Shown piece by piece: positions 821-30,787 of a stretch of DNA of 55,767 nucleotides. The position numbers were made by a program, and so were the translations under genes. The DNA comes from a virus. Lineage: Duplodnaviria > Caudoviricetes. The notes below the pieces were generated by a model. The model did no database searches, had not been told where the DNA came from, and was given only the letters and a program-made list of their open reading frames with translations. The DNA is taken from IMG/VR virus record IMGVR_UViG_3300012943_000007, positions 1 through 55,767 of that record; one strand, written 5' to 3'. How positions within the stretch are numbered: the stretch's first letter is position 1; each line of letters begins with the position of its first letter.

Positions 821-2654
821 TTTATTCGAATGGATCGAGCCGCCTGCGCCTATCGAGCCGTTGCGGCCCGATGCGCTGAGTATTGCGCAATGGCGTGCGC
901 AAGGCGGTCCGGATTATAAGCGCATTCTGGCTTGGCGGATTAACGAAATCGACGCTATGCGCGCGAGCGTTAGAGCGGAAAACGAACGACGTTCCAAAAA
1001 CTTTCAATCCGGCCCGCAACCGACATTGCTCGATATGGCAAAGGCGTATTACGCCAAGCCTGAGAATGCCGGGCGGTTCATTATGGATTGGATGGATACT
1101 TACGATCCGCGCAAAAAGTCTATGCGATGGATGCCGTTCGTATTTTTCCAACGGCAAAACGAGTTCATCGATTTTCTAACTGAAATGTATCTGACCGACG
1201 AGAACGGGCTTGTCGAAAAAGCGCGTGATATGGGTCTGACATGGCTTTGCGTTGCGTGGTCCGTTTGGGCGTGGCTATTCGTTCCGGGTGTCGCAATCGG
1301 TTGGGGCTCGCGCAAGCAAGAGCTAGTCGACCGGCGCGGCGATTTCGACAGTATTTTTGAAAAGATTAGGCAAGTCGTTCAGCGTTTACCGCGTGAGTTC
1401 TGGCCGAAAGGGTTCGATCCGTCGAAACACGCGACGGAAATGAAGCTGATCAATCCTGAGAATGGCGCGTCGATCACTGGCGAAATTGGCGATAACATCG
1501 GTCGCGGCGGTCGAAAGACGATCTACTTTAAGGATGAAAGCGCCCATTACGAACATCCCGAGTTGGTTGAAGCGGCGCTAGGCGATAACACGAATTGCCA
1601 GATCGATATTAGCTCGGTCAACGGGCTTGGAAACGTGTTCCAGAGGCGCGCGGAAAGCGCAGAGCTTTGGACGCCGAATAGACCCGCGCCAATCTACTCC
1701 GGCGTGGTCCGAAAGTTTATTGTTGATTGGCGCGATCATCCTGAAAAAACACAAGAATGGTACGAACGGCGGAAAGCGCGAGCGGAAGCCGAAGGATTGC
1801 TCGCTAAATTCTTGCAGGAAGTGGAACGCGATTATAGCGGGTCGCTGTCTGGCGTAATCATCTTACGCGAATGGGTTGAAGCGGCGATTGACGCTCATTT
1901 GAAGCTTGTCGATTGGAAAGATAGTCGAGGCGTGCCGATTGATTGGCTTTCCGGAGGTTGGGCGGGCGGGCTCGATATCGCCGACAGTGACGACGGTGAT
2001 AGGAACGCGCTTGTCTATCGCAAGGGGATTGTTCTTTGCGATGCTGACGAATGGGGCGGCGCTCGCGATCCGGGGGTTACGACACGCAAAGCGATTGCGA
2101 CGTTGATCGCATTGGGTGAATATATAGAATGCTATTACGATAGCGTCGGAATGGGTTCGAACGTTAAGTCGGAATGGAACCGTCTAACAATCGATGATGA
2201 AACGGGCGGATTGCGTAAAGATGCACCGAAAGGTATCGAGCGCGTCCGGATGGTTGGATGGAATGCAGGCGATAGCGTTCAAAATCCATATTATCATTTG
2301 GTCGAGGATGACGATGAAACGCCGCTTAATCGTGAATTCTTTCAGAACATGAAGGCTCAAGCGTGGTGGTCGCTTAAAATGCGGTTCTATCGGACATGGC
2401 AAGCGGTCGTTCAAGGCTTGCGCTTCGATCCCGACAGCATGATCAGCATTCATTCCGGATTGCGCCTATTGGAACAGATCAAAAAAGAGCTATGCCAACC
2501 CGTCATGGTTCAAAGCGCGGGATCGTTAAAACAGATGGTCGATAAAAAGCCCGCTAATACCAAGTCGCCGAACGTTGCCGATGCAATCGTTATGTGTTAT
2601 TTCCCGGTCGACAATGGCGGCGCAACGGCGACAAGTGGCACTCATGGGACTTAG
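807..2654 (+). CDS. terL: terminase large subunit
   Basis: Walker A-like EKARDMGLTW, Walker B YFKDESAH, nuclease motifs GLDIAD and SPNVADA; precedes portal. Confidence 0.93.
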   Translation: MLRGDLFEWIEPPAPIEPLRPDALSIAQWRAQGGPDYKRILAWRINEIDAMRASVRAENERRSKNFQSGPQPTLLDMAKAYYAKPENAGRFIMDWMDTYDPRKKSMRWMPFVFFQRQNEFIDFLTEMYLTDENGLVEKARDMGLTWLCVAWSVWAWLFVPGVAIGWGSRKQELVDRRGDFDSIFEKIRQVVQRLPREFWPKGFDPSKHATEMKLINPENGASITGEIGDNIGRGGRKTIYFKDESAHYEHPELVEAALGDNTNCQIDISSVNGLGNVFQRRAESAELWTPNRPAPIYSGVVRKFIVDWRDHPEKTQEWYERRKARAEAEGLLAKFLQEVERDYSGSLSGVIILREWVEAAIDAHLKLVDWKDSRGVPIDWLSGGWAGGLDIADSDDGDRNALVYRKGIVLCDADEWGGARDPGVTTRKAIATLIALGEYIECYYDSVGMGSNVKSEWNRLTIDDETGGLRKDAPKGIERVRMVGWNAGDSVQNPYYHLVEDDDETPLNREFFQNMKAQAWWSLKMRFYRTWQAVVQGLRFDPDSMISIHSGLRLLEQIKKELCQPVMVQSAGSLKQMVDKKPANTKSPNVADAIVMCYFPVDNGGATATSGTHGT

Positions 2655-4206
2655 CAGACTGGCGCTAATGGCGGCATTCGACGGCGCAGCGGCGCCAACG
2701 CTGCTAGAGGATTTGGACAAGCCCGGCGCTGATAATTCAGTCATGCGCCCGTACTGGCAGCTAGTCGACGCCATTCTAGGCGGCGTCGAAACAATGCGGC
2801 TCGCAAAAGACATGACGTTGCCGCAATTGCCTGCCGAAGATGACGACGATTACAAATTTCGGGTGAACACTTCGAAGTTTACGAATGTGTTCGGTGATAT
2901 CATCGAAGATTTGTCGAGCCGTCCGTTCTCTGAGGAAGTCAAGGTTGAGGGCGAGAATACGCCCGCCGAAATCGAGGTGTTTTGCGACGACGTTGACGGC
3001 GCCGGAACGTCGCTGACGATGTTCGCAGCGGAACAGTTTTATAACGCCGTTGCGTACACTATCGATTGGACGTTCGTCGATTTCCCGAACGTTCCACCGA
3101 AATCCGATGGTACGGTTCGCACTCGCGAAGATGACAAACGCGACGGTAATCGCCCGTATTGGTCGCATGTTCGGGCGATCAACGTTCTAGAAGTTCGAAC
3201 CAAAATCATCAATGGTCGCGAAACGATCATTTATTTCCGTCTGTTCGAACCTGCGGCGAATGGGATCAAGGATCGCGTTCGTATCATGGAGCTAATCAAC
3301 GGCGTTGCCAGTTGGAAGCTTTACGAAAAGTCGGATCGTGCGTCGAATACCGCCAATGCGACGACATGGGTCGGCGTCGACGAAGGTATTTTTTCCATCG
3401 GCAGCATTCCGCTCTATCCGTTCGCAACGGGTCGCCGGAAGGGTCGGACTTGGCAGTTTCATTCGCCGATGAAGTCGGCGGCGGAATTGCAGGTTCAGCT
3501 ATTCCAAGATGAAAGCGCGCTGAAACATTCTAAGATCATGTCGGCGTTCGTAATGATCGCCGCGAACGGGGTGAAGCCTGAGAAAACCGGCGTCGGTAAC
3601 GCACAGACGATCAAGCCGCTTAAGACCGGTCCGGGTCGCGTTCTTTACGGCGGCGTTGACGGCAGCGGAACGGCAGGCACGTTCGAATTGCTAGAGCCGT
3701 CTGCGTCGACGATGGAGTTCCAAGCCAAAGACAACGAACGCACGATCAACCAATTGCGCGAGCTAGGACGCCAGCCGTTGACGGCGCAGTCTGGTAACCT
3801 CACGGTGATTACGACGACGGTTGCCGCGATGAAGGGCAACAGCGCTTGCCAGCAATGGGCGATCATCGAAGGTAAGGCGCTCGAAAGCGCGCTGGAAGCA
3901 ACCGCGCGTTGGTACGGTATCCAGAATTACAAACCGTCCGTTGAAGTGTTCCATGATTTCGACGTTGACGGCGAGGGCAAGGATATGACGCTTATTCTTG
4001 ACGCTCGAAAGAATGGCGATCTATCGCAGGGCACGCTTTGGCATGAAATGCGCCGTCGCGGCGTGTTGAGTGCTGAGTTCGATCCAGAAAATGAAAAGAA
4101 AGCTTTGTTGGACGAAACGCCCGACGAAACGGATATCGACGACGAAATAACCAAGCCCGGCGCGAACGTCGTTCCGATTAAACAGCCGGTGAAACCCCCT
4201 GTCTAA
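2644..4206 (+). CDS. portal protein (DUF4055-like)
   Basis: About 520 aa directly after terL; start set at ATG 2644 (MGLSRLALMAAFDG); acidic C-terminus. Confidence 0.85.
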   Translation: MGLSRLALMAAFDGAAAPTLLEDLDKPGADNSVMRPYWQLVDAILGGVETMRLAKDMTLPQLPAEDDDDYKFRVNTSKFTNVFGDIIEDLSSRPFSEEVKVEGENTPAEIEVFCDDVDGAGTSLTMFAAEQFYNAVAYTIDWTFVDFPNVPPKSDGTVRTREDDKRDGNRPYWSHVRAINVLEVRTKIINGRETIIYFRLFEPAANGIKDRVRIMELINGVASWKLYEKSDRASNTANATTWVGVDEGIFSIGSIPLYPFATGRRKGRTWQFHSPMKSAAELQVQLFQDESALKHSKIMSAFVMIAANGVKPEKTGVGNAQTIKPLKTGPGRVLYGGVDGSGTAGTFELLEPSASTMEFQAKDNERTINQLRELGRQPLTAQSGNLTVITTTVAAMKGNSACQQWAIIEGKALESALEATARWYGIQNYKPSVEVFHDFDVDGEGKDMTLILDARKNGDLSQGTLWHEMRRRGVLSAEFDPENEKKALLDETPDETDIDDEITKPGANVVPIKQPVKPPV

Positions 4207-4221
4207 AGAAAGGTTCTAGAA

Positions 4222-5052
4222 ATGCACATTCGTAACTTGTTCGGAATTTCGCATGTCGCTCTCATGGCGGCGTTCGAAGGCGAGAACGTTCCGACGTTGG
4301 CGCAACAGCCGGTCCGCGACGGCAAGCTTGTGTTCATCAACGGCGACAAAGAGGAACTTGTTGACCCCGGTGAATATTGGACGGGTCGCAGCAAGATCAC
4401 GGCGCTGAACAGTGAAGCGGCGGGCCATAGGCGCGAGAAAGAAACGCTCGCCGAAAAGCTGAAACCGTATGAAGGGATCGACCCGGTGAAAGCGCGCGAA
4501 GCGCTCGGGATCGTCGAAAAGCTCGATCAGAAAAAGCTTTTGGACGCCGGGGAAGTCGACCGGGTGAAAGCGACTATCGAGGAAGGCTATAAGGGTCAGC
4601 TTACCGAAGCGCAGAAGCGCGGCGATACGCTGCAAGCCCGGCTGAACGAAAAGGTACTGACAGAAGCGTTCACTGGCTCGAAATGGGTCGACGACACGTT
4701 GGCGATCCCGAAAGATATCGTTCAATCAACGTTTGGTCGGTTCTTTACCGTCGACGACGCGACCGGCAATATCAGCGCCAAGGATCATACTGGTAATCCG
4801 ATCCTGTCGCGCGCCACGGAACGGCTCGGGCAACCGGCGCCATTCGAGGAAGCGCTAAAGGTGCTGGTTGAAGCCTATCCGAACAAAGACGCCATTATGA
4901 AGGGCAACGCCAATCGTGGCGGCGGCAACACTGGCGGCGGCGGTAATCCGGGCGGCGGCGCGCGGATCGTTCGGCGCGCTGATTTCGACAGTTGGTCGCC
5001 TGCCGAAAAGGCAAAGGCGGCGACTGATCCGAATATCAAGATCGTCGATTAA
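4222..5052 (+). CDS. capsid scaffolding protein
   Basis: Charged coiled-coil, Gly-rich linker, short C-terminal helix; lies between portal and coat. Confidence 0.8.
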   Translation: MHIRNLFGISHVALMAAFEGENVPTLAQQPVRDGKLVFINGDKEELVDPGEYWTGRSKITALNSEAAGHRREKETLAEKLKPYEGIDPVKAREALGIVEKLDQKKLLDAGEVDRVKATIEEGYKGQLTEAQKRGDTLQARLNEKVLTEAFTGSKWVDDTLAIPKDIVQSTFGRFFTVDDATGNISAKDHTGNPILSRATERLGQPAPFEEALKVLVEAYPNKDAIMKGNANRGGGNTGGGGNPGGGARIVRRADFDSWSPAEKAKAATDPNIKIVD

Positions 5053-5102
5053 CGGGCTCGCTGGCGCGTCGTTTCGAGCGGGCGGCGCAATAGCTGAGAG
5101 GG

Positions 5103-5142
5103 CGGGGCGGCTTGAAGGGGTTTCAGCCGCCCCGTTTGTTTT
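5103..5142 (+). terminator. intrinsic terminator between scaffold and convergent island
   Basis: cggggcggcttgaa/tttcagccgccccg stem followed by tttgtttt. Confidence 0.6.
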
Positions 5143-5604: not shown

Positions 5605-5695
5605 TGAACCCTCACAAGGCGGTTGAGAATGAGCGCGGCGAATAGGATCGCGCTCGGATAGGTTGCAAGATCGATAGCGGCGAACAGGGCGGTCA

Positions 5696-5914: not shown

Positions 5915-5943
5915 TCAATCCTCCATCGGTTGAATACCGTCTG

Positions 5944-5971
5944 ATATAAGCGCGCTAATCAGCCGGGTCAA
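5944..5971 (-). promoter_or_regulatory. sigma70-type promoter TTGAC-N17-TTATAT
   Basis: Spacing counted; 5943-5971 is 26/29 nt identical to 34351-34379. Confidence 0.75.
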
Positions 5972-6862: not shown

Positions 6863-8086
6863 ATGCGCAAGGCTTCCTTGCTCGCGTCGGTCGCGCTAAT
6901 CGGCGTTATCGGCGTCGCCCCGTCCTATGCGGCGGCGAACACTCTTACCGGGCTCATTCCCGACATTTACGCGGCGCTCGACGTTGTGTCGCGCGAACTG
7001 ATCGGCTTCATCCCGTCCGTCAATCGCAATACCGGCGCCGAACGTGCGGCAAAGGGCGAGGCGGTCAAATGGCCGGTTTCGCGCACCACTACGGCGACCG
7101 ATATCACGCCGTCCATGACGATCCCGAACCCTGCGGATCGAACGACTGATACTGCGTCGATCACGATCACCGAAGCGAAGTCGGCCCGGTTCGGCTATAC
7201 CGGCGAGGAACAGAAAGGGCTGAACAATTCCGTCGGCTATCTTTCGGTTCAGGCGCAGGAAATCGCGCAGGCGTTTCGTTCAATCGCGAACGAAGTCGAA
7301 CAGGATATCGCCGACGTGGCGCTCGTTCATGGCTCGCGCGCTTACGGCACGTCGGGAACGACGCCGTTCGCAACCGATCTTTCCGACGCGGCGAACATCA
7401 AGAAAATCCTTGATGATAACGGCGCCCCGTCCGGTGAACGTTCGCTGATCATCAACACTACGGCAGGCGTTAAGGTTCGCACTTTGACGCAGTTGACCAA
7501 GGTCAACGAGGCCGGAACGTCGATGACGCTGCGGGACGGCGAACTGCTTTCGATCTTCGGTCTGTCGATGAAAGAAAGCGCCGCCAACACGTCGCATACC
7601 AAGGGAACCGGCGCGTCGGCGACGACGAATAACGCGGGTTATGCGGTCGGCGCGACGACGATCACGCTTGCATCTGCGGGCACCGGGACGATTGTCGCGG
7701 GCGATGTGATCACCATTGCGGGCGATACGAACAAGTACGTCGTTCTTTCCGGCGACGCCGACGTTTCGAACGGCGGCACGATTACGATTGGCGCACCGGG
7801 TCTGCGTGTGGCAATCGCGGCGTCGGCGACGGCGATCACTGTGCTGAATTCGTTCAGTGCGTCGTTCGGTTTCTCGCGCAATGCGCTTGCGCTTGCGGCT
7901 CGCCCGCCTGCCGTTCCGGAAGGTGGCGATGCTGCCGTCGAAAGCATGTTGGTTACCGACGTGCGTTCGGGTATCACCTTTGATATCCGTCGTTACAACG
8001 GTTACCATATGTCGGAATACGAAGTTGGTCTGGCGTGGGGTGTCGCCGCGACCAAAGACGAGCATATCGCGACGCTGCTCGGCTAA
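6863..8086 (+). CDS. major capsid protein, P22 coat-like, with N-terminal leader
   Basis: ANTLTGLIPDIYAALDVVSRE start of fold, Thr/Ala-rich insertion domain, C-terminal GLAWGV; GAGGG SD before ATG 6863. Confidence 0.9.
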   Translation: MRKASLLASVALIGVIGVAPSYAAANTLTGLIPDIYAALDVVSRELIGFIPSVNRNTGAERAAKGEAVKWPVSRTTTATDITPSMTIPNPADRTTDTASITITEAKSARFGYTGEEQKGLNNSVGYLSVQAQEIAQAFRSIANEVEQDIADVALVHGSRAYGTSGTTPFATDLSDAANIKKILDDNGAPSGERSLIINTTAGVKVRTLTQLTKVNEAGTSMTLRDGELLSIFGLSMKESAANTSHTKGTGASATTNNAGYAVGATTITLASAGTGTIVAGDVITIAGDTNKYVVLSGDADVSNGGTITIGAPGLRVAIAASATAITVLNSFSASFGFSRNALALAARPPAVPEGGDAAVESMLVTDVRSGITFDIRRYNGYHMSEYEVGLAWGVAATKDEHIATLLG

Positions 8087-10666: not shown

Positions 10667-11218
10667 TTACGACTTGCGCCAGACGCGAACCTCTGCCTTG
10701 TCAGGATCGGTTTTCGGATCGACCGGCGACGCGAAGAACACGCGTTCCGGGCCGCGAGCGCGAACCGGCGTAGTAACGCCCGGCTGACCGGGAACCGGAA
10801 CGTCGATCATCTTCGGCGTACCGTCCGGGTTCGACAGATCGACAAGCTTATCGGGCTTTGCCCAACGCTTGTTGGCGCTGGCGACGGTCGAATTGACGTT
10901 TTTGAACGTCTTACCGACGACGCCGAAGCTTTCGCCGATTTCCATCTTTTCGAACGGATAGATCGACTTGCCGCCGCGCTTGCCGGACGACGGGCGCTTG
11001 TCCGGGATCGGAATTGCCTTGGTCAGCGAAGTGAACGGGGTGTCATTGCTAGCAGGGGCGGCAGCGGTTGCGGGCTGCGGGATGGAAGCGCCGCCGCCGG
11101 CAGGAACGGGAACAGGCGTGGGAGCGCCGCCAGTCTTACCGCCAGCGGCGGCGAAAAGCAGCGGCGACGCCGACAGAGCGGCGAGCGCAATCATAGAACG
11201 GAACTGACGGTGAGACAT
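10667..11218 (-). CDS. putative small DNA-binding protein with hydrophobic leader
   Basis: IPIP...RGGKSIYPFEKMEIGESF...VRVWR pattern seen in phage proteins; flanked by own promoter and terminator. Confidence 0.65.
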   Translation of the reverse strand: MSHRQFRSMIALAALSASPLLFAAAGGKTGGAPTPVPVPAGGGASIPQPATAAAPASNDTPFTSLTKAIPIPDKRPSSGKRGGKSIYPFEKMEIGESFGVVGKTFKNVNSTVASANKRWAKPDKLVDLSNPDGTPKMIDVPVPGQPGVTTPVRARGPERVFFASPVDPKTDPDKAEVRVWRKS

Positions 11219-12001: not shown

Positions 12002-12394
12002 TTGCAAATCGCTCGAATTGAAAACGCCACACGGGTTATCGGTAAATCACAAGGTTATTATGGTTTGCCGGTGCGCGACGAATTGCGCGCTCGCGAACCG
12101 TCACTAATGGAAACCGTTAAAGCCGCGCGCCAATGGGCGGCGGCGCCAGCGGTCCGGGGATCGTCGTCGGCGCAAATTATCGAGGGACTGTGCGACGCAC
12201 TCGAATTACTGCCGGTGCAAGATATGGTTGCCCATTTCACAGTGCCCGGTCCGGACACGCCGGTTATGGTCACGGCATGGCAACCGAACCCCGGTGAGTT
12301 GATCGCGCTGAACGCTGGCGCGTCGATACACGTCGAATTGCTAGGCATTAGTCATCCGCCGATCATGCTTAAGGTTGGGCCGCTTCCAATATGA
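12002..12394 (+). CDS. conserved phage hypothetical protein
   Basis: TTG start; IENATRVIGKSQGY.GLPVRD...MVTAWQP..GEL.ALNAGA...HPPI pattern. Confidence 0.6.
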   Translation: MQIARIENATRVIGKSQGYYGLPVRDELRAREPSLMETVKAARQWAAAPAVRGSSSAQIIEGLCDALELLPVQDMVAHFTVPGPDTPVMVTAWQPNPGELIALNAGASIHVELLGISHPPIMLKVGPLPI

Positions 12395-13431
12395 AACGCC
12401 GTCGCACTCTCAATCAACGTTTGGATGATGCAATCGAGCGGTTCACGCCGACGATTGCCGAAGCGTTTCGGAGTGCGATCCAAGGCGTTAAAGATACCGT
12501 TCTAATTACCGATCTTGTCGGCGCGCTTGAAGCTGGCGACCCGATCCGCGCGTTGCGGGTTCTCGGGTTCAATGACGCGGCAATGCGTCCGTTGACGGCA
12601 GCAATCGAACAAGCGTTTGAGAATGGCGGAATTACCGCCGCGAGCGCATTCCCGCGTCTGACTGACGGGCTCGGAACTAGAGCGGTATTCCGGTTTGACG
12701 TTCGCAACAGCCGGGCGGAAGCTTGGTTGCGGGATCGTTCATCCCGGCTTGTCTCGCGGATTAACGAACAGACGCTTGAAAATATCCGCAATACGCTGAA
12801 CGACGGGATGCGGCTCGGAACGAACCCGCGCGAGACTGCGCTAAATATCGTCGGGCGGCTTGATCCTGCCACCGGTCAACGTGCGGGCGGGATCATCGGA
12901 TTAACGCCGATGCAAGAGCGCTGGATTTCGAGCGCTCGCGCTGAACTAGCCGATCCGGAAACGGCGAGCAATTGGTTCACGCGCAAACGTCGCGATAAGC
13001 GGTTCGATAGTATCGTAAGGAAGTCAATCGAGGATAACGTTCCGCTCGATACCGTCACGATCAACAAGCTAACAACGCGCTATTCCGACAGCATGTTAAA
13101 ATTACGCGGCGATACGATTGCACGCACGGAAAGCATTGCGGCGTTGAACCAATCCGCGCAAGAGAGTTTGCAACAAGCGGTCGATAACGGCTCTATCGAT
13201 AAGAGCGCCGTCAAACGCATTTGGGATAGCGCAGGCGACGACGGTCGCACGCGTGAAAGCCATTTGATAATGGACGGGCAAGCGGTCGGATTGAACGAAC
13301 CGTTCACGGCGCCCGATGGCTCGCGCATGATGTATCCCGGCGACACGTCGCTAGGCGCGAGCGCCGAAGAAACGATTAATTGCCGTTGCCGGGTTCGCCT
13401 GTCGGTCGATTGGTTGGCGGGCGCTGGCTAA
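12391..13431 (+). CDS. phage Mu gpF-like head morphogenesis protein
   Basis: TIARTE, KRIW, RTRESH, INCRC motifs. Confidence 0.85.
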   Translation: MKRRRTLNQRLDDAIERFTPTIAEAFRSAIQGVKDTVLITDLVGALEAGDPIRALRVLGFNDAAMRPLTAAIEQAFENGGITAASAFPRLTDGLGTRAVFRFDVRNSRAEAWLRDRSSRLVSRINEQTLENIRNTLNDGMRLGTNPRETALNIVGRLDPATGQRAGGIIGLTPMQERWISSARAELADPETASNWFTRKRRDKRFDSIVRKSIEDNVPLDTVTINKLTTRYSDSMLKLRGDTIARTESIAALNQSAQESLQQAVDNGSIDKSAVKRIWDSAGDDGRTRESHLIMDGQAVGLNEPFTAPDGSRMMYPGDTSLGASAEETINCRCRVRLSVDWLAGAG

Positions 13432-13709: not shown

Positions 13710-14064
13710 CAAACGATCTCGCTCGCGCTTCCGGAACGGTCGGCCCCAACATACAACGGAACCCCTTCCAATTGACACTGGTATAACCGCGCCGTTCGAA
13801 ATACGGGATCAGTCGGGGGTTGATGACGTTTTCGATGCTGAACCGATAGTGCGGTTCCCAACGATCTAAGAACGCGGTCAACGCGCCTTTGCCGGGCTTG
13901 CGCGCCTCCATATTGGCTAGCACGTAATCGCCATGCGTCGCGAGCCAGCCTTTGCGAATGTAGATGCGAATGCCCGGCTCGCTGATCCATGCTGACGACG
14001 GCAAGAGGCGCTTGCTTGCCCATTCGTCGAACTGCAAGAATGTCGGATTGGCAATCGGGATCAT
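13690..14064 (-). CDS. GNAT-like acetyltransferase
   Basis: RKPGKGALT motif-A-like; ENVINPRL..YFERRGY motif-B-like; ATG 14064 coupled. Confidence 0.55.
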   Translation of the reverse strand: MIPIANPTFLQFDEWASKRLLPSSAWISEPGIRIYIRKGWLATHGDYVLANMEARKPGKGALTAFLDRWEPHYRFSIENVINPRLIPYFERRGYTSVNWKGFRCMLGPTVPEARARSFDDLGSV

Positions 14065-14531
14065 AGCGGTTCCTGCTTTCCATTGACGGGTTGAGCGCTC
14101 GAAACAAGCCGCTGACCATGCCAGCCGAACGGCAGTCGGAACGCCGGGTCTAGAAAAACCCAAAGGTGATATTGGTTCGCCGTGTCGACTTCATCGGCGC
14201 GAGCCGGAAAGATTTGGACGGCTTCATATTCCGGCCCGCAAATTTCGTCTTTGATCCGCATGAAATCGCGATAGCCCGCCGCACTGATCGGCTCTTTATC
14301 GAGCCGCTTAATCGACAGGTGTCCGATATCGGGAAAGCCTGGCGCGCGAAGCTTGCGGCAATTCACCTGATACACGTCATTTCGAAAAATCATGTCGTTA
14401 TCAAGATCGTCGATTATCGCGGCGGCTTGCGCTTCTGTCATGGTCGGATCAGTGCGCAGGCAATCGGCTATGATTGCCGCCCGGCGTTCGGACGTAATCG
14501 GTTCTAGGGTGGCGGGCATTAGGGGTTTCAT
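14061..14531 (-). CDS. conserved phage protein
   Basis: HLSIKR...IKDEICG.E.EAVQIFP....VD.AN.YHLW pattern. Confidence 0.7.
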   Translation of the reverse strand: MKPLMPATLEPITSERRAAIIADCLRTDPTMTEAQAAAIIDDLDNDMIFRNDVYQVNCRKLRAPGFPDIGHLSIKRLDKEPISAAGYRDFMRIKDEICGPEYEAVQIFPARADEVDTANQYHLWVFLDPAFRLPFGWHGQRLVSSAQPVNGKQEPL

Positions 14532-15634
14532 TTCAGGGTCACCGGGAAGTTGTCAGGGATGATAGTTTCGAAAGTCTGGCTGATACGCTGTTCTAATGTT
14601 CCGTAAGTATTTTCGTTAAGGCGGTCAAGCATGAATGCGTTAACCGGAACTTCATGTTCGTCGCTGAATGCGTCCATTGGCGAACCATAAGACCCGCTGT
14701 TCATTGTGGTTAGATCGTCGCACGATGCGACCGTGGCAAAATAGAAACGCCGCAACATAGAAGGGTGACCAAGGCCGAACACAAGATCGTTTAGGTTCAG
14801 CGGATCGCCGGGCTGTTTGAGTGTGACGGCGTTGATCATGCTAACGTCCATGCGGCTCGAAATAGTCACAACGATTTCAGTTGAATAACCATTCTGTTCT
14901 AGCAGATCGGAAATTGCGCCGACACAAGCCGCGCGGATCGCGATTGTTTTCGGATTGATGTTTGCTGACATGCCAAGTTCGGTGAACAGTGTCACGATCT
15001 TTTTCGCAGGCATACGAACGCGCGCTTTCATATGAACCGGTGAACCCGCCAGCATCTTGCCGACGTTCACGCGCCCGCCAGCGACGCCGTAACGGCTTTC
15101 GCGAGCCGTGGCTTGTTCGCCGTTGATGAATTCGAGCGCCTGCTTTGCAGTGTCAACGCCTTCTTCCCAACCGTTGCGAGCGATGGAAACGGCGTGATCA
15201 AAATCGTCCGTACCAGTGAATTCATGGCGGTGTGCGCTAGTTCCCCATGCCGCGCCGCGACCGTTTTCGCCGTTGCCGTAAACCCGAACGGATTTGACGA
15301 AATCGACGTAAGCGGGAAGCGATGAAAAACCGGCGAATACCGTCGTCGGACGGAACGTTCCCAAATGGGTTTGGTCGTCGCCAATGAAGCGCGTTTTGAT
15401 TTCTTCGCTGGTAGTAACAACGGCAGCGGGACGGACGTTCTCGCGCGGTGCCGGGATCATTTTGTTGGGTTCTTTGCCGTCAAGCGTGACGACGCAACCG
15501 ATCAGATTGCGCACGGTATCGAGCGCCGGGGAATTGTCGGAAAGCTTCCAACCCTTGCGGTTGCCGTCCCAAATCGCGCCAAGGCGTTTCAGCGTTTCTT
15601 TGTGACCGAACGTTTTGCCAGAGATAAAAGCCAT
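14528..15634 (-). CDS. vWA-like partner of AAA+ ATPase
   Basis: Adjacent to MoxR-type ATPase; beta-strand plus degenerate MIDAS (TLFTELGMSANI), HPSMLRR. Confidence 0.6.
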   Translation of the reverse strand: MAFISGKTFGHKETLKRLGAIWDGNRKGWKLSDNSPALDTVRNLIGCVVTLDGKEPNKMIPAPRENVRPAAVVTTSEEIKTRFIGDDQTHLGTFRPTTVFAGFSSLPAYVDFVKSVRVYGNGENGRGAAWGTSAHRHEFTGTDDFDHAVSIARNGWEEGVDTAKQALEFINGEQATARESRYGVAGGRVNVGKMLAGSPVHMKARVRMPAKKIVTLFTELGMSANINPKTIAIRAACVGAISDLLEQNGYSTEIVVTISSRMDVSMINAVTLKQPGDPLNLNDLVFGLGHPSMLRRFYFATVASCDDLTTMNSGSYGSPMDAFSDEHEVPVNAFMLDRLNENTYGTLEQRISQTFETIIPDNFPVTLK

Positions 15635-15660
15635 TCATTCCTCCATTTCCGATCCGCCTT

Positions 15661-15688
15661 ATGTAAGGGCGGATCGGATCGTTGTCAA
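15661..15688 (-). promoter_or_regulatory. promoter TTGAC-N17-TTACAT overlapped by 11-bp inverted repeat
   Basis: tccgatccgcc 15648-15658 / ggcggatcgga 15668-15678. Confidence 0.6.
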
Positions 15689-15691
15689 CGG

Positions 15692-16837
15692 TCAGATGAT
15701 CTTTTTGCGGTCGCTTTCCGACATGCCTTTGAACAAATACATTTCCTCAACGTTCGCTTGGGAAATACCCGCCGCAAGAGCCTGCGAACCCATGATAATT
15801 GCGCGGGTCGAAACGACGTGGCGGATATTCTTTGCCCGGCATTCCATGCGAACATCGGTCACGCGGTCAAGCCAGAGTTCGTTTCCGCCGCTCAAAGCAA
15901 CTTCAAGATCGCGGTCGTAATCGATAGCGATCACGGCGAAACGATCCAGCGAAGCGGCGTCAAGCTGATTACGCCCGACATAGACGCGATCCGCGCCGTG
16001 ACCGTAAGTGTTGGCTGTGGCGACGATCCGGAAATTAGCATGGCGCAGCACCGGAACCGGCGTGTCGGGGAACGTCGCGAAACCGTTGGCAAGGGCGCTA
16101 TTGGCCGCGAGCAACGCGGCGGCGTCCCATGCGTCGATTTCGTCGGCAACCCATACGCCGCCATGCTCGAAAGCCTGCCGGAACGCGGTCGAATGATAAT
16201 TGCCCATACCGTCGACGAACCCCAACAATTCGTGAGTGTCGAACACGGTCGACGTGATATAGAGAGGCAGGTTCAGCGCGGTCGCGACAGTCGAGCAAAT
16301 CGACGTTTTGGACGCACCGGCAGGGCCGACCAACATAACCGGGTGCGCGAGCGATGCGACCCGGATAACCATTCCGGTTGACGCATGAACGACCCCTTCA
16401 ATTTTGGTCAAGCCAGCCGGGCCGGAAATTTCGAGCCGGGTCACCTTAACGGCAGGTTCGATCTTGCCGATTTCGTCGGCGACGATGGCGCGAACCTTGC
16501 TTTCGTCAACGATAGCTTCCGGATTGCCCATAAGCAGGCGCAGGGCGTTGGCGAACTGTTCAGCGGCGGTATTGGTCACCGGGGCGGGCGGCGTTGCAGC
16601 AGGGGCGCCGTAGTACGTCGGCGCGGGTTCCGAACGGGTTTGCCAAGCGGCGTAAGTGGCGTAAAGGTTCATAAGCTCGACGTTCGACATTTTGTAAACG
16701 TCGGCGGAAACATAACCCTTGGCGGTCGCCCATTTCCGAAGCAACGGACGGTTGGTTCCGTCGACGCGAATAAGTTCGCTTGCCGGGCCGATCATGCTTT
16801 CGGCTTCATTGACGGTCATGGAAGGGGTGCGGGCCAT
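15692..16837 (-). CDS. MoxR/CbbQ/CobS-like AAA+ ATPase
   Basis: Walker A GPAGASKT, Walker B VADEID, ATANT, LDAASLDRF, STR. Confidence 0.85.
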   Translation of the reverse strand: MARTPSMTVNEAESMIGPASELIRVDGTNRPLLRKWATAKGYVSADVYKMSNVELMNLYATYAAWQTRSEPAPTYYGAPAATPPAPVTNTAAEQFANALRLLMGNPEAIVDESKVRAIVADEIGKIEPAVKVTRLEISGPAGLTKIEGVVHASTGMVIRVASLAHPVMLVGPAGASKTSICSTVATALNLPLYITSTVFDTHELLGFVDGMGNYHSTAFRQAFEHGGVWVADEIDAWDAAALLAANSALANGFATFPDTPVPVLRHANFRIVATANTYGHGADRVYVGRNQLDAASLDRFAVIAIDYDRDLEVALSGGNELWLDRVTDVRMECRAKNIRHVVSTRAIIMGSQALAAGISQANVEEMYLFKGMSESDRKKII

Positions 16838-16869
16838 TTCGAAAACTCCGGTTTGAATTTCTTTCCGAT

Positions 16870-16897
16870 ATCTAGACCAATCCGACACGGCAATCAA
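16870..16897 (-). promoter_or_regulatory. promoter TTGAT-N17-CTAGAT
   Basis: Spacing counted; upstream of ATPase start. Confidence 0.5.
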
Positions 16898-17781: not shown

Positions 17782-18267
17782 ATGAAGGGAATTAGCGCCG
17801 TCGCGCTTATGGCGGCAATGGCGAATGATGGCGTTATCGGCACGCATGAGGGCGGAACGCTTCATGTTTGTGCGACGCCAGCGACAACCGATCTTGACGC
17901 GGCGGGATTTGCCGCGCTGACGTGGGTTGCGGTCGGCAAGGTCGGTTCAGTCGGCGAATTCGGTATCGTTCAGAATATCGTCGATTACGACACTTGGGCC
18001 GGAACGACGCTCAAGGGCAAGGGCTCGAAACGTCCGGGTGATCCGGAAGTCGAATACGCCCGCGATGAAACCGATGCCGGGCAGGACGTATTGCGCACGG
18101 CTTGCGATCTTGCGACGGCGCACGCTGTCAAAGTGACCAAGCAGGATGGAACAATCTTCTATTCTCGCGCGCTGGTCGCTGGTCCGTCCATGCCGCAGGG
18201 TCGCGGCGAGGACGCCGACATTGAAGTTGTAACGCTCGGGCTTGTTCAGAAGCCCGTTCGCGTGTAA
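17782..18267 (+). CDS. major tail tube protein
   Basis: LTWVAVGKVGSVGEFG, KGKG, DAGQ..LR; start ATG 17782 with GGGGA SD. Confidence 0.85.
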   Translation: MKGISAVALMAAMANDGVIGTHEGGTLHVCATPATTDLDAAGFAALTWVAVGKVGSVGEFGIVQNIVDYDTWAGTTLKGKGSKRPGDPEVEYARDETDAGQDVLRTACDLATAHAVKVTKQDGTIFYSRALVAGPSMPQGRGEDADIEVVTLGLVQKPVRV

Positions 18268-22269: not shown

Positions 22270-22270
22270 A

Positions 22271-26548: not shown

Positions 26549-26551
26549 CGC

Positions 26552-27640
26552 ATGTCGCAGCACGATTACAATATCGCCAATGCGCCGGGTGCGACCGTCC
26601 GAGCCGACGTTAACGCGCTCGCGGAAGCAATCGCGTCTCTGAATGGTGGTGCTAGCTCGCCGTCCGTGACGTTCGCCAATATGTTTTGGATGGACGAAAC
26701 GAACGATCTTCTAAAGATGCGCAACCGGACTAACTCCGGTTGGATCACGCTCGCGTCCGTTGTTGGATCGACGTTCAAGCTTGCGCTTAGTGCGATCAAT
26801 ACGCCAGCGTCCGGAAGTTGGTTCGGGACTAGCGAGCGCTTCCCGTTCATTGCGACCGATGGTGTTATGGAAGTCGGCGCTAGTCTCGATTTCCATCCGG
26901 ACGCGGCGGGAACCGAAGATTATCGAGCACGGGTCAATCGCGCGACCGGCACGAACGGCATTCTAAATATCGTCAATACCGGTAACGGCGGTATTGAAAT
27001 TACGACGGATACCGGAACGTTCCGGGTGAATTCGAACGTCATTGCGCCTATTCCGATTGGCGCTCTTATGCCGTATGGCGGAACGACTGCGCCGACGAAC
27101 TGGCTAATGCTTTATGGTCAGAACGTTAGCCGGACGACTTACGCCGGTTTGTTCGCGATCTTTGGAACGACGTTCGGCGTCGGAAACGGAACGACGACGT
27201 TCACGCTTCCCGATCTTCGCGGGCGTGTGATCGCTGGCAAGGATAACATGGGCGGCGTGTCGGCGGATCGTCTGACGACTTACGCGCTCGACGGCGACGT
27301 TCTAGGTGCATATGGCGGTTTGGAATATCACACTCTTACCGCTGCACAATTGGCGTCACACGCGCACGTTGTCGATCCGCCGAATACCGGCACGTCGGGC
27401 GTTGGCGATCACGCGCACGCATATACGTTTACCGATCCGGGCTTTGCCGCTATGGGTACTTGGCCTAGCGCGTCGTCGAATTTTGTTAGCCCGACAGGGC
27501 TTGCAACAAGCGGCGCGGGCGCGCACTCGCACGCCGTTGATATCGGTGCGTTTGCTTCTGGATCAGCCGGTTCGGATGGCGCGCATAACAACGTTCAGCC
27601 GACGTTGGTCCTTAATTACATCGTTTACGCGGGTGCATGA
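26552..27640 (+). CDS. tail fibre 1 with tail-collar domain
   Basis: PIGALMPY...WLM.YGQ.VSRTTYA.LF...TF.LPDLRGR collar; HxH metal motifs; HNNVQP. Confidence 0.88.
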   Translation: MSQHDYNIANAPGATVRADVNALAEAIASLNGGASSPSVTFANMFWMDETNDLLKMRNRTNSGWITLASVVGSTFKLALSAINTPASGSWFGTSERFPFIATDGVMEVGASLDFHPDAAGTEDYRARVNRATGTNGILNIVNTGNGGIEITTDTGTFRVNSNVIAPIPIGALMPYGGTTAPTNWLMLYGQNVSRTTYAGLFAIFGTTFGVGNGTTTFTLPDLRGRVIAGKDNMGGVSADRLTTYALDGDVLGAYGGLEYHTLTAAQLASHAHVVDPPNTGTSGVGDHAHAYTFTDPGFAAMGTWPSASSNFVSPTGLATSGAGAHSHAVDIGAFASGSAGSDGAHNNVQPTLVLNYIVYAGA

Positions 27641-28296
27641 TGGCTCTTAAAATCGCTCGCGAAATCATCGAACAAGGCGGCGGAACAAAGACGCTTGATA
27701 AAGCGATCAAGGATTTCGCCAAGGCGCTTAAGCTGCATGAAAAAACGGTCGACGTTCCGGCGCCGACAGCGCACCCTATGGTTATGGAAATCGTCCGGGC
27801 GCACGGTGGCGAATATGAAATCGTGGAACCGCCAGCGCCGCCCGAATTGCGCAAGCCCGCGCCGCTCGAAACAATCGAAGAAATCCGCGCTCGGGAAGCT
27901 AAGGCGAATGAGGAAGCCGCCGAAAAGCTTTCGATTGACGATCATCGGAATATGACGCTCGCGCGTTTGTCAGCGTTCAAATGGAGCAAGGTCGGCGAGG
28001 GTGTCGACTATAACGGCATTCGCTATTGGTCGGATCGAGCGTCGGAATTCGATATCGTCGCGGCGATCCTTGACGGTGAATTGCAAGGCGAAACGTTCGC
28101 GATCAAATGGAAGTCGGCAGACGGTCAATATCCAATTCTAGGGTTGGACGATCTTCGCGCGATCCTGCGTTTGATCCGCGCTCATAAGCAGACGTGTTTC
28201 AATCGCGAACAGCGCGTTGCGGAAAAGATCAATGGTTTGAAGTCTGCGAAAGCATTGCGAGAATTCGAATACGCCGGGCAATGGGATAAGGTCTGA
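27637..28296 (+). CDS. tail fibre assembly chaperone (DUF4376-like)
   Basis: Follows fibre; WKSADG...H.Q.CF.RE pattern. Confidence 0.65.
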   Translation: MMALKIAREIIEQGGGTKTLDKAIKDFAKALKLHEKTVDVPAPTAHPMVMEIVRAHGGEYEIVEPPAPPELRKPAPLETIEEIRAREAKANEEAAEKLSIDDHRNMTLARLSAFKWSKVGEGVDYNGIRYWSDRASEFDIVAAILDGELQGETFAIKWKSADGQYPILGLDDLRAILRLIRAHKQTCFNREQRVAEKINGLKSAKALREFEYAGQWDKV

Positions 28297-28298
28297 TC

Positions 28299-29516
28299 AT
28301 GGCGCAGCACGATTATTCCATTGCGAACGGTTCAGGCGCGGCGGTCCGAGCGGATATCAACGCGCTTGCCGGTGCTATCGCGTCGCAGAACAGCGGTTCT
28401 AGCGCGCCGTCTGTTACGTTCGCTTATATGTTTTGGGCGGATACCGCTAATGATCTAATGAAACAACGCAACGCGGCTAATACCGCTTGGGTTGATCTTT
28501 GGACAATGAGTACGGGTCAGCCTGTCACGGCTGGTAATCCGCTCACTGTCACAGTTCACAAATGGACGGCGACGGCAGGTCAGTTGACGTTCAACGGTGC
28601 GAGTGCGACGCCTGCGCTTAGCGCGGCGCCTGCGTCCGATAATCTCGTTATCATCAATCGCAACGGTCGCCCGCTGTTGCGCGATGAATACACGTTCGGC
28701 GGCACGGTCAATTTTACGACGACGATCACGGATATCGAGGCTGGCGAAATCATCGAAGCGATGGTTTTCGCGTCCGGTACGGCATCGCTCGCGCCTAGCG
28801 CCGGTTCAATCGGCACGGCGGCTTTCGGAACGAACAGCGTTACGAATACCGTTCTAGCCGATATGGCGGCGGATACGATCAAGGGTCGCGCGAATGGCGC
28901 GGGCACCGGCGATCCAACCGATTTGACCGCTGCGCAGGTTCGGACGATTATCGGCTTACCGGCAATCGGAACAGCCGGGCAGAGGTTGCAGAGCGACGGA
29001 ACCGCGTTGACTAATGTTTCCGATTGGGAAGCGATTGAAATCAATACGGCGCTTACGGCGACCAGTTCATGGGCACGAACCGGATTGAGTGCGTATAGTT
29101 CATTAAAACTAGAAGGTTTTATTCTTCCAGCCACAAACTCCGCAGGCGTTGGTTTAAGAACAAGTTCTAACAACGGTTCATCGTACGGTACTAGCTATTA
29201 CCGTCAGTATCTTGCAGGTTCGACGGCAACGGCATCAGCCGGGCAAGCTGGTGAGACAAGTATGTTGCTTTCCAACAGTGTTTATAACCACACAACCGAA
29301 GGCGGGATTACGTTTTCGCTGCTTATGGAAAATTTTAATAAATCCCGTCGAGCAAATGCTATAGTTACAGCCGGATTTGCGGATGGTACCAGCGGCGCTA
29401 ACGTTCTTATTTCTTGGTTTCAAGTGCTAGACAACACAGCGAGAGACGCGATCCAGTTGCTTGCGAGTTCCGGTAATATATCCGGTCGCATTTCGCTTTG
29501 GGGATTGAGAGGTTAG
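28299..29516 (+). CDS. tail fibre 2
   Basis: First ~65 aa paralogous to fibre 1 (M.QHDY.IAN..GA.VRAD.NALA.AIAS.N). Confidence 0.85.
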   Translation: MAQHDYSIANGSGAAVRADINALAGAIASQNSGSSAPSVTFAYMFWADTANDLMKQRNAANTAWVDLWTMSTGQPVTAGNPLTVTVHKWTATAGQLTFNGASATPALSAAPASDNLVIINRNGRPLLRDEYTFGGTVNFTTTITDIEAGEIIEAMVFASGTASLAPSAGSIGTAAFGTNSVTNTVLADMAADTIKGRANGAGTGDPTDLTAAQVRTIIGLPAIGTAGQRLQSDGTALTNVSDWEAIEINTALTATSSWARTGLSAYSSLKLEGFILPATNSAGVGLRTSSNNGSSYGTSYYRQYLAGSTATASAGQAGETSMLLSNSVYNHTTEGGITFSLLMENFNKSRRANAIVTAGFADGTSGANVLISWFQVLDNTARDAIQLLASSGNISGRISLWGLRG

Positions 29517-29520
29517 AACG

Positions 29521-29898
29521 ATGGTTCATTTCGTCAACGGCAAACCGGTCGATGAACCGCCGCAGGGTATCGAAGCATTCGAACGTCAGCGCGAAATCGA
29601 CGCCCGTCCGGTTCCGCCGACTGTTGCGCAGACGAAAGCAGAAGCGGCTCGCCGGATCGAGGCAATCTTGCCGGACTACAAACAACGTAACGCGCTCGCG
29701 CTCGCGCTTGAAACGACGCAAGAGCATGGCGCTGATCCGTCCAAATGGCCTGCCGATTTGAAGGCGGAAAATACCGCCTATATGACGCAATGGAAAAAGA
29801 TCAAACGCATTCGTAAGCGGTCGGACGAAATCGAATTACAGATTAAAGCGGGCACGTTCACCGGCTCGCTAACTGACGATGGGGTTTGGAATGATTGA
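29521..29898 (+). CDS. tail fibre chaperone-like protein
   Basis: KAEAARRI...P.YKQRN...W..I..IR..SD.IE. Confidence 0.6.
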   Translation: MVHFVNGKPVDEPPQGIEAFERQREIDARPVPPTVAQTKAEAARRIEAILPDYKQRNALALALETTQEHGADPSKWPADLKAENTAYMTQWKKIKRIRKRSDEIELQIKAGTFTGSLTDDGVWND

Positions 29899-30787
29899 TC
29901 CGGGTCGCGTAGTCGGCAGTATCCTTTCCGGGCTCGCGCTCGCGGCGGCGATGGATTTTCGTCTGTCGCTTGAAAGCGGCGTCCCGGTCAGCACAACCGA
30001 TCAAACCGCTAAAACAACGCTCTATTTGACGCCCTATTGCGGCAATCGGATCGGCCTATACAACGGCTCGAAATGGGTTCTGCGCGAAACCGCCGAATTG
30101 TCGATTTCGCTCGCGGGTCTGACTTCCGGGCTTGTCTATGATGTTTTCGTTTATGACAACGCCGGGACGCCGACGCTCGAATTGCTCGCTTGGACAAACG
30201 CGACGACGCGTGCAACAGCGCTAACACGTCAGAATGGTATTCTCGTCAAGAGCGGCGCAGCAACGCGGCGTTATGCCGGTTCAATCGTTATGTCGGCGAC
30301 GGGACAGAGCCAGATTAAATTCGGCGGGTCGGCGGCTGGTGGTTCGGAAGCTTATATCGGTATTTGGAATTTCTATAATCAAAAAGACCTTAAACCTTTT
30401 GTCCGTGATACAACTGACAATTGGACTTACGGAACCGGCACTTGGCGCAATTCCAACAATTCAGCAGGAATGCGCGTTTCGATGGTCCGCGGCTTCGACG
30501 AGGATTGGGTGCGCGCGTCGTTCAGCGAGCACATGACCAACGGCGCCGGCTCGGCGGGCCACGTTGGCGTGGGACTCGACGGCACAACCAACATCGGCAG
30601 CGCAAACGAGGGCGTGCCCAACACCTCAGGTGCCCAGGCGACGTTCGCCAATCTCCTTCCGGGTCTCGGCTTTCACTATCTGCAAGCGCTCGAATTCGTG
30701 GCGGGCAGTGGGAACGTGACTTTTTACGGGGACAACGGTAATCAACAGAATTTTGGGAATGGATTTGGAGTTGATCTTAAATGGTAA
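29891..30787 (+). CDS. tail fibre/spike 3
   Basis: RLSLESGVPV..TD...LY.TPY.GN.I..Y.G; beta-rich; in fibre cluster. Confidence 0.7.
   Translation: MIDPGRVVGSILSGLALAAAMDFRLSLESGVPVSTTDQTAKTTLYLTPYCGNRIGLYNGSKWVLRETAELSISLAGLTSGLVYDVFVYDNAGTPTLELLAWTNATTRATALTRQNGILVKSGAATRRYAGSIVMSATGQSQIKFGGSAAGGSEAYIGIWNFYNQKDLKPFVRDTTDNWTYGTGTWRNSNNSAGMRVSMVRGFDEDWVRASFSEHMTNGAGSAGHVGVGLDGTTNIGSANEGVPNTSGAQATFANLLPGLGFHYLQALEFVAGSGNVTFYGDNGNQQNFGNGFGVDLKW

What the first reader, a model, noticed from the sequence alone, without database searches (positions are those of the whole stretch)
2644..29956. Shared N-terminal leader peptide on unrelated virion proteins: candidate processing or targeting system
Seen: four non-homologous late proteins begin with the same motif. 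Portal (2644) M-GLSRLALMAAFDG; scaffold (4222) MHIRNLF-GISHVALMAAFEG; tail tube (17782) MK-GISAVALMAAMANDG; fibre 3 (29891) MIDPGRVVGSI-LSGLALAAAMD. Consensus [IL]-S-x-[VL]-A-L-[MA]-A-A-[FM]. Codons differ at synonymous positions (Ser AGC/TCG/TCC, Leu CTA/CTC/CTT), so the constraint looks protein-level rather than a DNA or RNA site. Looser versions start the coat protein (LASVALIG) and the 11218 protein (RSMIALAA). No prohead protease gene is recognisable. Established analogy: Staphylococcus phage 80alpha capsid and scaffold carry an N-terminal motif copied from ribosomal protein L27 and are cleaved by the host protease Prp. Inference: this phage tags head and tail parts with a common leader read by a host or phage protease, or by a membrane-associated assembly factor. 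I know of no such motif described for alphaproteobacterial phages.
Basis: partly seen in the sequence, partly recalled or inferred. Interest (0 to 1): 0.88.

Follow-up and report, generated by a model that had tools for sequence, protein, structure and literature searches.

The report
Shared leader peptide on phage virion proteins
A whole group of soil and water phages puts the same short detachable peptide on the front of its head and tail building blocks, and carries a small protease-like gene that probably reads it.

Summary
The A-L-M-A-A core occurs 3 times in all six frames, each time at the N-terminus of portal, scaffold or tail tube. The major capsid protein (ATG 6863), the DUF7303 protein (11218, minus strand) and, weakly, the 29891 protein carry variants.

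Relatives (Rhizobium phages P106B and RHph_X2_24, and many uncultured contigs) carry a different, genome-specific leader on the same proteins. Every leader ends small-Ala-[Phe/Tyr] followed by [Ala/Asp]-Asn. Leaderless homologues begin exactly at that junction.

Leaders of different proteins co-vary within a genome. No prohead protease or Prp is encoded.

The best candidate reader is the 141-aa product of 41182-41604:
- It has an invariant Cys and His.
- Its predicted fold is closest to C39 leader peptidases.
- All 18 assessable leader-bearing clade genomes have it.
- The one leaderless clade genome keeps 19 of 21 core genes but lacks it.

Cleavage itself is not shown. Verdict: a new, phage-encoded variant of the Prp-type leader system. 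It can be tested in cultured phages.

The parts
2644..2679 (+). Leader of the portal protein (12 residues if ATG 2644 is the start; an in-frame ATG at 2614 would make it 22). Portal gene 2644-4206.
   Evidence: (phrog_145 portal, match starts at residue 27). Cross-genome junction matrix score 13.3, the best N-terminal score in the window.
4222..4275 (+). Leader of the scaffolding protein (18 residues). Gene 4222-5052, DUF6651 / phrog_206.
   Evidence: Good SD upstream. Homologues carry genome-specific leaders, and the leaderless form starts 3 residues before the conserved Trp.
6863..6934 (+). Leader of the major capsid protein (22-24 residues, the longest and most signal-peptide-like). Gene 6863-8086, P22-coat-like, phrog_283.
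   Evidence: start, SD; 111 of the 120 closest homologues carry an extension before the conserved A/D-N-T-L-T, and 9 start at it.
11153..11218 (-). Leader of the DUF7303 protein (22 residues), followed by an Ala/Pro/Gly-rich linker and a conserved C-terminal domain. Gene 10667-11218.
   Evidence: Relatives in P106B, RHph_X2_24 and several contigs carry leaders ending Ala-Phe then Ala. Other members have no leader.
17782..17820 (+). Leader of the tail tube protein (13 residues, ends in Met instead of Phe/Tyr). Gene 17782-18267, phrog_158.
   Evidence: In the AlphaFold model, residues 1-25 have low confidence and no secondary structure, and the first strand starts at residue 26.
29891..29953 (+). 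Possible leader (21 residues) of a 298-aa tail-region protein of unknown family. This is the weakest member.
   Evidence: No Pfam or PHROG match. No homologue in the other loci at the thresholds used. Matrix score only 3.3.
41182..41607 (+). Candidate leader peptidase: a stand-alone 141-aa papain-like (C39-like) cysteine peptidase between the 40590 gene and the helicase gene.
   Evidence: Invariant C12, H97 and P110 with Asp/Asn before the Pro. Model pLDDT 93.3. VIA Z 9.3-8.2 to PCAT1, ComA and LahT150 peptidase domains. Co-occurrence with leaders.

Best explanation
The motif is the core of a modular N-terminal leader peptide of about 10-30 residues. Most leaders begin with a Lys or Arg near the start. 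All continue into an Ala/Leu/Ile-rich stretch that ends small-Ala-[Phe/Tyr, rarely His/Met]. A clade of Rigallicvirus-like siphophages fuses this leader to its main self-assembling virion proteins: portal, scaffold, major capsid protein, tail tube, the DUF7303 protein and perhaps one tail-fibre-region protein. Shown: the leader is translated, lies outside the folds, is gained and lost gene by gene, and co-varies among the proteins of one genome, so one genome-specific factor reads it. Inferred: that factor is the phage's own C39-like cysteine peptidase (41182-41604). It would remove the leader at [Phe/Tyr] | [Ala/Asp/Glu]-[Asn/Gly], leaving the same mature N-termini that leaderless relatives make directly. 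Speculative: by analogy with 80alpha, the uncut leader may help folding or hold back assembly, with the peptidase releasing the proteins for assembly.
For: (1) Reality and translation.
(2) Same four proteins, different leader. P106B and RHph_X2_24 and 23 loci that hold all four genes show it, and five further full genomes do too.
(3) Junction. In 68 non-redundant leaders P2 is Ala in 49, P1' is Ala in 36 and Asp in 21, and P2' is Asn in 52 (P1 aromatic is by construction). The leaderless genome L031/L033 = G015 starts capsid and tube with Met directly before the A-N-T residues that follow the junction elsewhere, and its scaffold 3 residues before the conserved Trp.
(4) Covariation of P8-P1 within genomes. 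Scaffold-tube scored 16.0 against 7.3 between genomes, permutation p = 5e-5, n = 11. Scaffold-capsid scored 4.9 against 0.8, p = 0.002, n = 18.
(5) No known protease. None of 86 window ORFs matches a prohead-protease or Prp family in Pfam at E <= 0.01. Prp was found in 0 of 61 genomes of the order of a Mesorhizobium genome, while the controls rang.
(6) The peptidase. Cys and His are invariant in 14 sequences. Its fold is closest to C39 leader-peptidase domains.
(7) Co-occurrence. It was found in 12 of 13 leader-bearing full records and in 0 of 14 records without a type-A leader (local profile). The one miss, G008, is a contig that begins inside the adjacent helicase gene. Five more clade genomes have both.
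(8) The natural knock-out. G015 keeps 19 of 21 core genes, including both flanking genes, but has an unrelated 70-aa ORF in the peptidase slot.
(9) Not a host gene in the sample: the peptidase profile was found in 0 of 61 genomes of that order.
Against: No cleavage has been observed. The link rests on one in-clade loss event (G015), so shared descent could produce it. G015 also lacks detectable homologues of 54325, 10667 and 11927. The peptidase family is much wider than the leader clade: 7,536 cluster representatives at E <= 0.001, and 24 of 32 long peptidase-bearing viral contigs have no P22-like capsid gene. In 12 such genomes I found neither type-A leaders above the level of control genomes nor any shared N-terminal motif. 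G034 has the peptidase but a leaderless capsid protein and portal. The substrate site is not the Gly-Gly site of C39 enzymes. The gene sits in the replication module, not among the late genes. Tube-capsid leaders do not co-vary (p = 0.31). Foldseek E-values to C39 domains are weak (0.017-0.2), and there is no sequence-level match to Pfam or to PDB chains.
Confidence: 0.5

Rival explanations
1. The leader is read by a host factor, not by the phage peptidase. This could be a host protease, as Prp is in staphylococci, or a host chaperone that handles all major assembling proteins. The 41182 product would then do something else.
For: There is a precedent: Prp cleaves 80alpha capsid and scaffold proteins between F and A, and the motif also sits on a major tail protein of phi13 (PMC5744158, passages). 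The peptidase family occurs in many phages without such leaders. Leaders look like generic chaperone or signal-type hydrophobic peptides.
Against: Prp was not found in 61 of 61 sampled genomes of the presumed host order, nor in the window. Leaders co-vary genome by genome, which a conserved host reader does not predict. The leaderless clade member has lost the phage peptidase.
Confidence: 0.2
2. The leader is not cleaved. It is a permanent or transient docking helix that brings the proteins to the inner membrane, to the scaffold or to each other during assembly.
For: The composition is hydrophobic and Ala-rich. The capsid leader has a 16-residue hydrophobic core. In 80alpha the scaffold leader is needed for assembly while cleavage is dispensable. 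Other lineages carry a different, roughly 35-61 residue hydrophobic capsid extension.
Against: The junction is sharply conserved, and leaderless homologues start exactly at it. Some leaders are only 10 residues long. The tube leader is unstructured in the model. A tail tube N-terminus carrying a hydrophobic tag in the virion would be unusual (inference).
Confidence: 0.15
3. The leaders are genuine Sec signal peptides, and the proteins, or a fraction of them, are exported and cut by signal peptidase I.
For: The capsid leaders of the window, P106B and RHph_X2_24 have a basic start, a hydrophobic core and small residues before the junction.
Against: Heads and tails of tailed phages assemble in the cytoplasm (established knowledge). 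Portal, scaffold and tube leaders can be 10-13 residues long. 24 of 68 junctions have Asp or Glu right after the aromatic residue, and the aromatic residue is the conserved feature.
Confidence: 0.03
4. It is an artefact. Translation would start at the internal Met of the core, and the shared letters would reflect a DNA or RNA site (ribosome-binding context, promoter, or recent gene conversion).
For: All three core copies contain an in-frame ATG followed by GCG GC.
Against: Good SD sites precede the outer, not the inner, ATGs of scaffold and tube. Related leaders have no internal Met. Ser is coded AGC/TCG/AGC/TCC. The capsid leader has no usable in-frame start between the leader (ATG 6863, TTG 6878) and the conserved N-arm; the next start, GTG 6986, would truncate the N-arm.
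Confidence: 0.02

Closest known systems
Prp / ribosomal protein L27-type leaders of staphylococcal phages (80alpha capsid and scaffold proteins; major tail protein of phi13)
   Same: A short N-terminal leader is shared by non-homologous head and tail proteins. It ends in Phe followed by Ala. About 13-14 residues are removed. These are phages with a separate scaffold and no prohead protease (PMC5744158, passages read).
   Different: There the protease is the host's essential Prp, and the leader copies host L27. Here Prp is not found in the window or in 61 sampled genomes of the presumed host order. The leader varies from genome to genome, the portal is also tagged, and the candidate enzyme is phage-encoded with a different (papain-like) fold.
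Peptidase C39 domains of bacteriocin exporters (ComA, PCAT1, LahT150)
   Same: They are dedicated leader-peptide peptidases of about 140 residues with a Cys/His/Asp triad. The model of the 41182 product superposes on them with Z 9.3-8.2 and rmsd 2.8-3.0 A over 109-116 residues. Atlas structure neighbours include Peptidase_C39 clusters at TM 0.64.
   Different: There is no Pfam PF03412 match and no fused ABC transporter. The presumed site has an aromatic residue, not Gly-Gly. The substrates would be large cytoplasmic structural proteins, not small exported peptides.
T4 capsid-targeting sequences and prohead proteases (T4 gp21, HK97 gp4, lambda C); recalled knowledge, not checked in a paper here
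   Same: N-terminal propeptides on several unrelated virion proteins are removed during maturation.
   Different: Those act inside the prohead on head proteins only, and the protease gene lies in the head module. Here the tail tube is tagged too, no such protease family is found, and the candidate enzyme lies in the replication module.

Membership tests
Prp/L27-mimic leader system | Same N-terminal leader on non-homologous virion proteins | tested here: met
Prp/L27-mimic leader system | Cleavage between Phe and Ala | not testable with these tools
   The junction [F/Y] | [A/D] fits, but no protein data exist.
Prp/L27-mimic leader system | Prp (PF04327) present in host or phage | tested here: not met
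   None among 86 window ORFs. 0 of 3 and 0 of 61 genomes of the Mesorhizobium order, while controls rang in B. subtilis, T. maritima and L. lactis. The window's own host is unknown.
Prp/L27-mimic leader system | Leader copies the N-terminus of host L27 | not tested
   Host unknown. The L27 sequences of rhizobia were not examined.
Peptidase C39 (PF03412) | Papain-like fold of the C39 peptidase domain | tested here: met
   Model pLDDT 93.3. VIA Z 9.3-8.2 to PCAT1, ComA and LahT150. Foldseek E-values are weak, 0.017-0.2.
Peptidase C39 (PF03412) | Conserved Cys, His and Asp/Asn | tested here: met
   C12, H97 and P110 are invariant, with Asp/Asn before P110, in 14 sequences. That these superpose on the C39 triad was not checked residue by residue.
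Peptidase C39 (PF03412) | Match to the family's sequence profile | tested here: not met
   No Pfam family at E <= 10 for the window protein. None of 10 relatives matched a peptidase family at E <= 1. No PDB sequence match to a peptidase.
Peptidase C39 (PF03412) | Substrate leader ending in Gly-Gly | tested here: not met
   P2-P1 is mostly Ala-[Phe/Tyr].
Sec signal peptide | Basic start, hydrophobic core of 7-15 residues, small residues at -3/-1 | tested here: inconclusive
   Met by the capsid leaders. Leaders of 10-13 residues and junctions with Asp/Glu do not fit. No signal-peptide predictor was available.
Known prohead protease families (HK97 S78, T4 U9, lambda S49, Mu U35, ClpP) | Pfam match of any window protein | tested here: not met
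   (86 ORFs, E <= 0.01). The only peptidase-type hits were NlpC/P60 and CHAP.

The most novel reading that the evidence does not exclude
A self-contained 'leader plus leader-peptidase' maturation system of tailed phages. A new, very large family of stand-alone C39-like cysteine peptidases (7,536 cluster representatives) would process genome-specific N-terminal leaders on head AND tail proteins, with leader and enzyme co-evolving. It would be the Gram-negative, phage-encoded counterpart of the host Prp system. In other phage lineages the same enzyme family may mature other, still unrecognised, leader-tagged proteins.
Probability: 0.45. Interest if true: 0.85.

Novelty: new variant of a known kind. 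Interest (0 to 1): 0.8.

Why it matters
Why some phages put a removable tag on proteins that assemble well without it is still unresolved for 80alpha/Prp. Here the tag, its natural loss and a candidate dedicated enzyme all lie in one small phage genome. Close cultured relatives exist (P106B, RHph_X2_24), so the question becomes testable by simple genetics and N-terminal proteomics. It would also give a first function to a very large uncharacterised phage protein family. It would correct gene annotation and structure modelling for thousands of capsid, portal, scaffold and tube proteins whose first 10-30 residues are not part of the mature protein. I found no paper describing this: searches for 'P106B', 'C39 + bacteriophage + capsid + leader peptide' and 'Rigallicvirus' returned nothing on it.

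Tried and rejected
It is found in 23 of 46 loci with an extension and in 0 of 36 without. But it has no conserved Cys or His, several members carry the leader themselves, and others lack one. I read it as a substrate, not an enzyme.

- The AAA_5 + DUF7192 + DUF7694 cassette (14064-16897, minus strand). It is present in only 4 of 12 full leader-bearing genomes, so I rejected it.

- The Mbeg1-like 40590 product. It is also present in leaderless G015, so I rejected it.

- Independent test in other lineages. In 12 complete or near-complete peptidase-bearing genomes without the P22-like capsid gene, a junction matrix gave 0-2 hits >= 12 per genome against 0-4 in leaderless controls. A de novo N-terminal pair test showed no convincing shared motif. 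This is inconclusive: gene calling was crude, and the motif may differ in those lineages.

- The cross-genome matrix discriminates poorly inside the window: portal 13.3, tube 10.8, capsid 7.8, scaffold 6.4, against a best internal window of 11.5.

- Complex prediction of the peptidase with the tube protein gave no verdict (score 0.00, controls not run). This is not evidence either way.

- A single-sequence homologue search for the peptidase found only 2 relatives. The profile search was needed.

- The paper first describing P106B was not in the library: 6 of 8 'P106B' papers were listed and none is that paper. Any virion mass spectrometry it holds, and all supplements, were not seen.

- The Wall et al. 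2015 paper on Prp was not read. It is known only from the reference list.

Full report
**What the window is.** It is a complete 55,767-base virus record with direct terminal repeats. It is a siphophage. Its nearest cultured relatives are Rhizobium phages vB_RglS_P106B and RHph_X2_24, genus Rigallicvirus. Gene identities:
- 807-2654 large terminase
- 2644-4206 portal (phrog_145, DUF4055)
- 4222-5052 scaffold (DUF6651, phrog_206)
- 6863-8086 P22-coat-like major capsid protein (phrog_283)
- 12391-13431 Mu F-like protein
- 17782-18267 tail tube (phrog_158)

The A-L-M-A-A core occurs three times in all six reading frames, each time inside the first 18 codons of portal, scaffold or tube. Codon choices differ: Ser is AGC/TCG/AGC/TCC and Leu is CTA/CTC/CTT/CTC. 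I compared the first 50 residues of 69 called genes pair by pair. Portal-scaffold (36) and scaffold-tube (33) beat every pair of internal segments (maximum 30). Only two true fibre paralogues scored higher. Good ribosome-binding sites precede the outer ATGs of scaffold and tube. The capsid gene starts at ATG 6863 behind GAGGG. Its 22-24 residue leader is longer and looks like a signal peptide, as the scan's own note e1-6332669 also says.

**The comparative picture.** P106B and RHph_X2_24 carry a leader on the same four proteins, but with a different sequence that is again shared within each genome. The more distant Salicola phage CGphi29 and Caulobacter phage DMCA have none, and their capsid proteins start exactly where the leader ends. 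The capsid family is very large: 7,498 proteins at E <= 1e-20 among 8,000 scored. Of the 120 closest members, 111 have an extension before the conserved A/D-N-T-L-T and 9 begin at it. On a quick tree this needs at least 5 changes of state.

Eighty viral contigs were fetched. In the 23 loci that hold all four genes, leaders differ between genomes but resemble each other within a genome. All end the same way. In 68 non-redundant capsid, scaffold and tube leaders:
- P2 is Ala in 49.
- P1 is Phe in 35, Tyr in 28 and His in 5 (aromatic by construction of the rule used to find the junction).
- P1' is Ala in 36 and Asp in 21.
- P2' is Asn in 52.

The leader is modular. Some genomes lack it on the portal (L043, L046, L051) or on the tube (L025, L055, L057). 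One lineage (L031/L032/L033) lacks it everywhere. There, tube and capsid proteins start with Met directly before the residues that follow the junction elsewhere. Prophage copies of the capsid gene in bacterial genomes are almost all leaderless: 1 of 79 loci (L171) has a type-A leader. The AlphaFold model of the tube protein has no confident structure before residue 26.

The DUF7303 protein (10667-11218, minus strand) is a further tagged family. Its relatives in P106B, RHph_X2_24 and several contigs carry clear leaders, while others carry none.

**One reader per genome.** I compared leaders of different proteins over P8-P1. Those from the same genome are more alike than those from different genomes.

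| Pair | Same genome | Different genomes | Permutation p | n |
|---|---|---|---|---|
| scaffold-tube | 16.0 | 7.3 | 5e-5 | 11 |
| scaffold-capsid | 4.9 | 0.8 | 0.002 | 18 |
| tube-capsid | 3.0 | 2.2 | 0.31 (not significant) | 13 |

Synonymous differences argue against recent gene conversion in the window. A reader that evolves with the phage explains this better than a conserved host factor.

**Who reads it.** No window ORF (86 scanned) matches a prohead protease or Prp family. Prp was not found in 61 of 61 sampled genomes of the order that holds a Mesorhizobium prophage host, while it rang in the Firmicute and Thermotoga controls.

It folds with pLDDT 93.3. Its best structural matches are the C39 leader-peptidase domains of PCAT1, ComA and LahT150 (Z 9.3-8.2, rmsd 2.8-3.0 A, 109-116 residues). 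The Foldseek E-values are weak. Atlas neighbours include Peptidase_C39 clusters. It matches no Pfam family and no PDB sequence. By sequence it is therefore a new family, with 7,536 cluster representatives at E <= 0.001.

Among 30 full records, the gene is in 12 of 13 with type-A leaders, 1 of 3 with the other (type-B) capsid extension, and 0 of 14 without a type-A leader. For two of those 14 only the tube homologue could be judged. The single miss, G008, is a contig that starts inside the neighbouring helicase gene, so the slot is simply off the end. Five more clade genomes have both leaders and peptidase. That makes 18 of 18 assessable, counting the window.

The leaderless G015 is a true clade member. 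It keeps 19 of the 21 window genes that are conserved in at least 9 of 11 leader-bearing full genomes, including both genes that flank the peptidase. The slot itself holds an unrelated 70-residue Cys-rich ORF. The peptidase profile was not found in 61 sampled genomes of the host order.

**Limits.** Nothing shows cleavage, and the scissile bond is inferred. I place it after the aromatic residue for two reasons. It yields the N-termini of leaderless relatives. A cut before it would also expose Phe or Tyr, which are destabilising N-terminal residues in bacteria (established N-end rule; inference). The association rests on one in-clade loss. The peptidase family reaches far beyond this clade: 24 of 32 long peptidase-bearing contigs have another capsid type. 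In 12 of those genomes I could detect no such leaders. G034 has the gene but a leaderless capsid protein and portal. In those phages the enzyme may have other substrates, or the link may be wrong.

**Comparison with what is known.** The closest known system is Prp in staphylococci. Prp cuts between F and A and removes 13-14 residues from the 80alpha capsid and scaffold proteins. The same motif sits on a major tail protein of phi13. The scaffold leader is needed for assembly, but cleavage is dispensable (PMC5744158, passages read). The present case works alike in outline. It fails the membership test on the enzyme: there is no Prp, and the candidate is phage-encoded with a different fold. It also adds the portal to the tagged set and shows genome-specific leaders. 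I rate it a new variant of a known kind, with high interest, because cultured relatives make it directly testable.

Noticed in passing
L068, L070, L077, L081, L087, L091, L095 (viral contigs); L115 (Caldimonas) and L130 (Pandoraea) prophages: A second, unrelated kind of N-terminal capsid extension ('type B'). It is about 35-61 residues with a transmembrane-like hydrophobic stretch before the same conserved A-N-T-L-T. The portal and scaffold of these genomes are leaderless. Only 1 of 3 full records has the peptidase.
   Followed up: partly
window 10667-11218 (-): The DUF7303 protein consists of a leader, an Ala/Pro/Gly-rich linker and a conserved roughly 120-residue C-terminal domain. It is encoded against the direction of the head genes. 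It is found in 23 of 46 loci with extensions and in 0 of 36 without. Its function is unknown.
   Followed up: partly
window 14064-16897 (-): A cassette of an AAA_5 (CobS/MoxR-like) ATPase, DUF7192 and DUF7694 sits between the head and tail modules on the opposite strand. It is shared with P106B and a few relatives only.
   Followed up: partly
G015 contig, about 39,670-39,880 (loci L193-L195): In the leaderless relative, the peptidase slot holds an unrelated 70-residue Cys-rich ORF.
   Followed up: no
window 2575-2654: The portal reading frame is open upstream of ATG 2644 and holds an in-frame ATG at 2614. That start would give a 22-residue leader with two Arg and would overlap the terminase gene by 41 bases. 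The true start is undecided.
   Followed up: no
window 50377-50712 (-): A small protein with a Tat-like N-terminus (Pfam TAT_signal E 0.065, below the cut-off) and a phage tail collar domain (E 2e-5), lying in the early region. The scan's own note e1-6332671 reported the same.
   Followed up: no
window 32131-55723 (ORF set A2): Pfam hits to RMF (ribosome modulation factor, E 8.1e-5), Macro, DUF4031 and WXG100 among the early-region ORFs. I did not trace which ORF gives the RMF hit.
   Followed up: no
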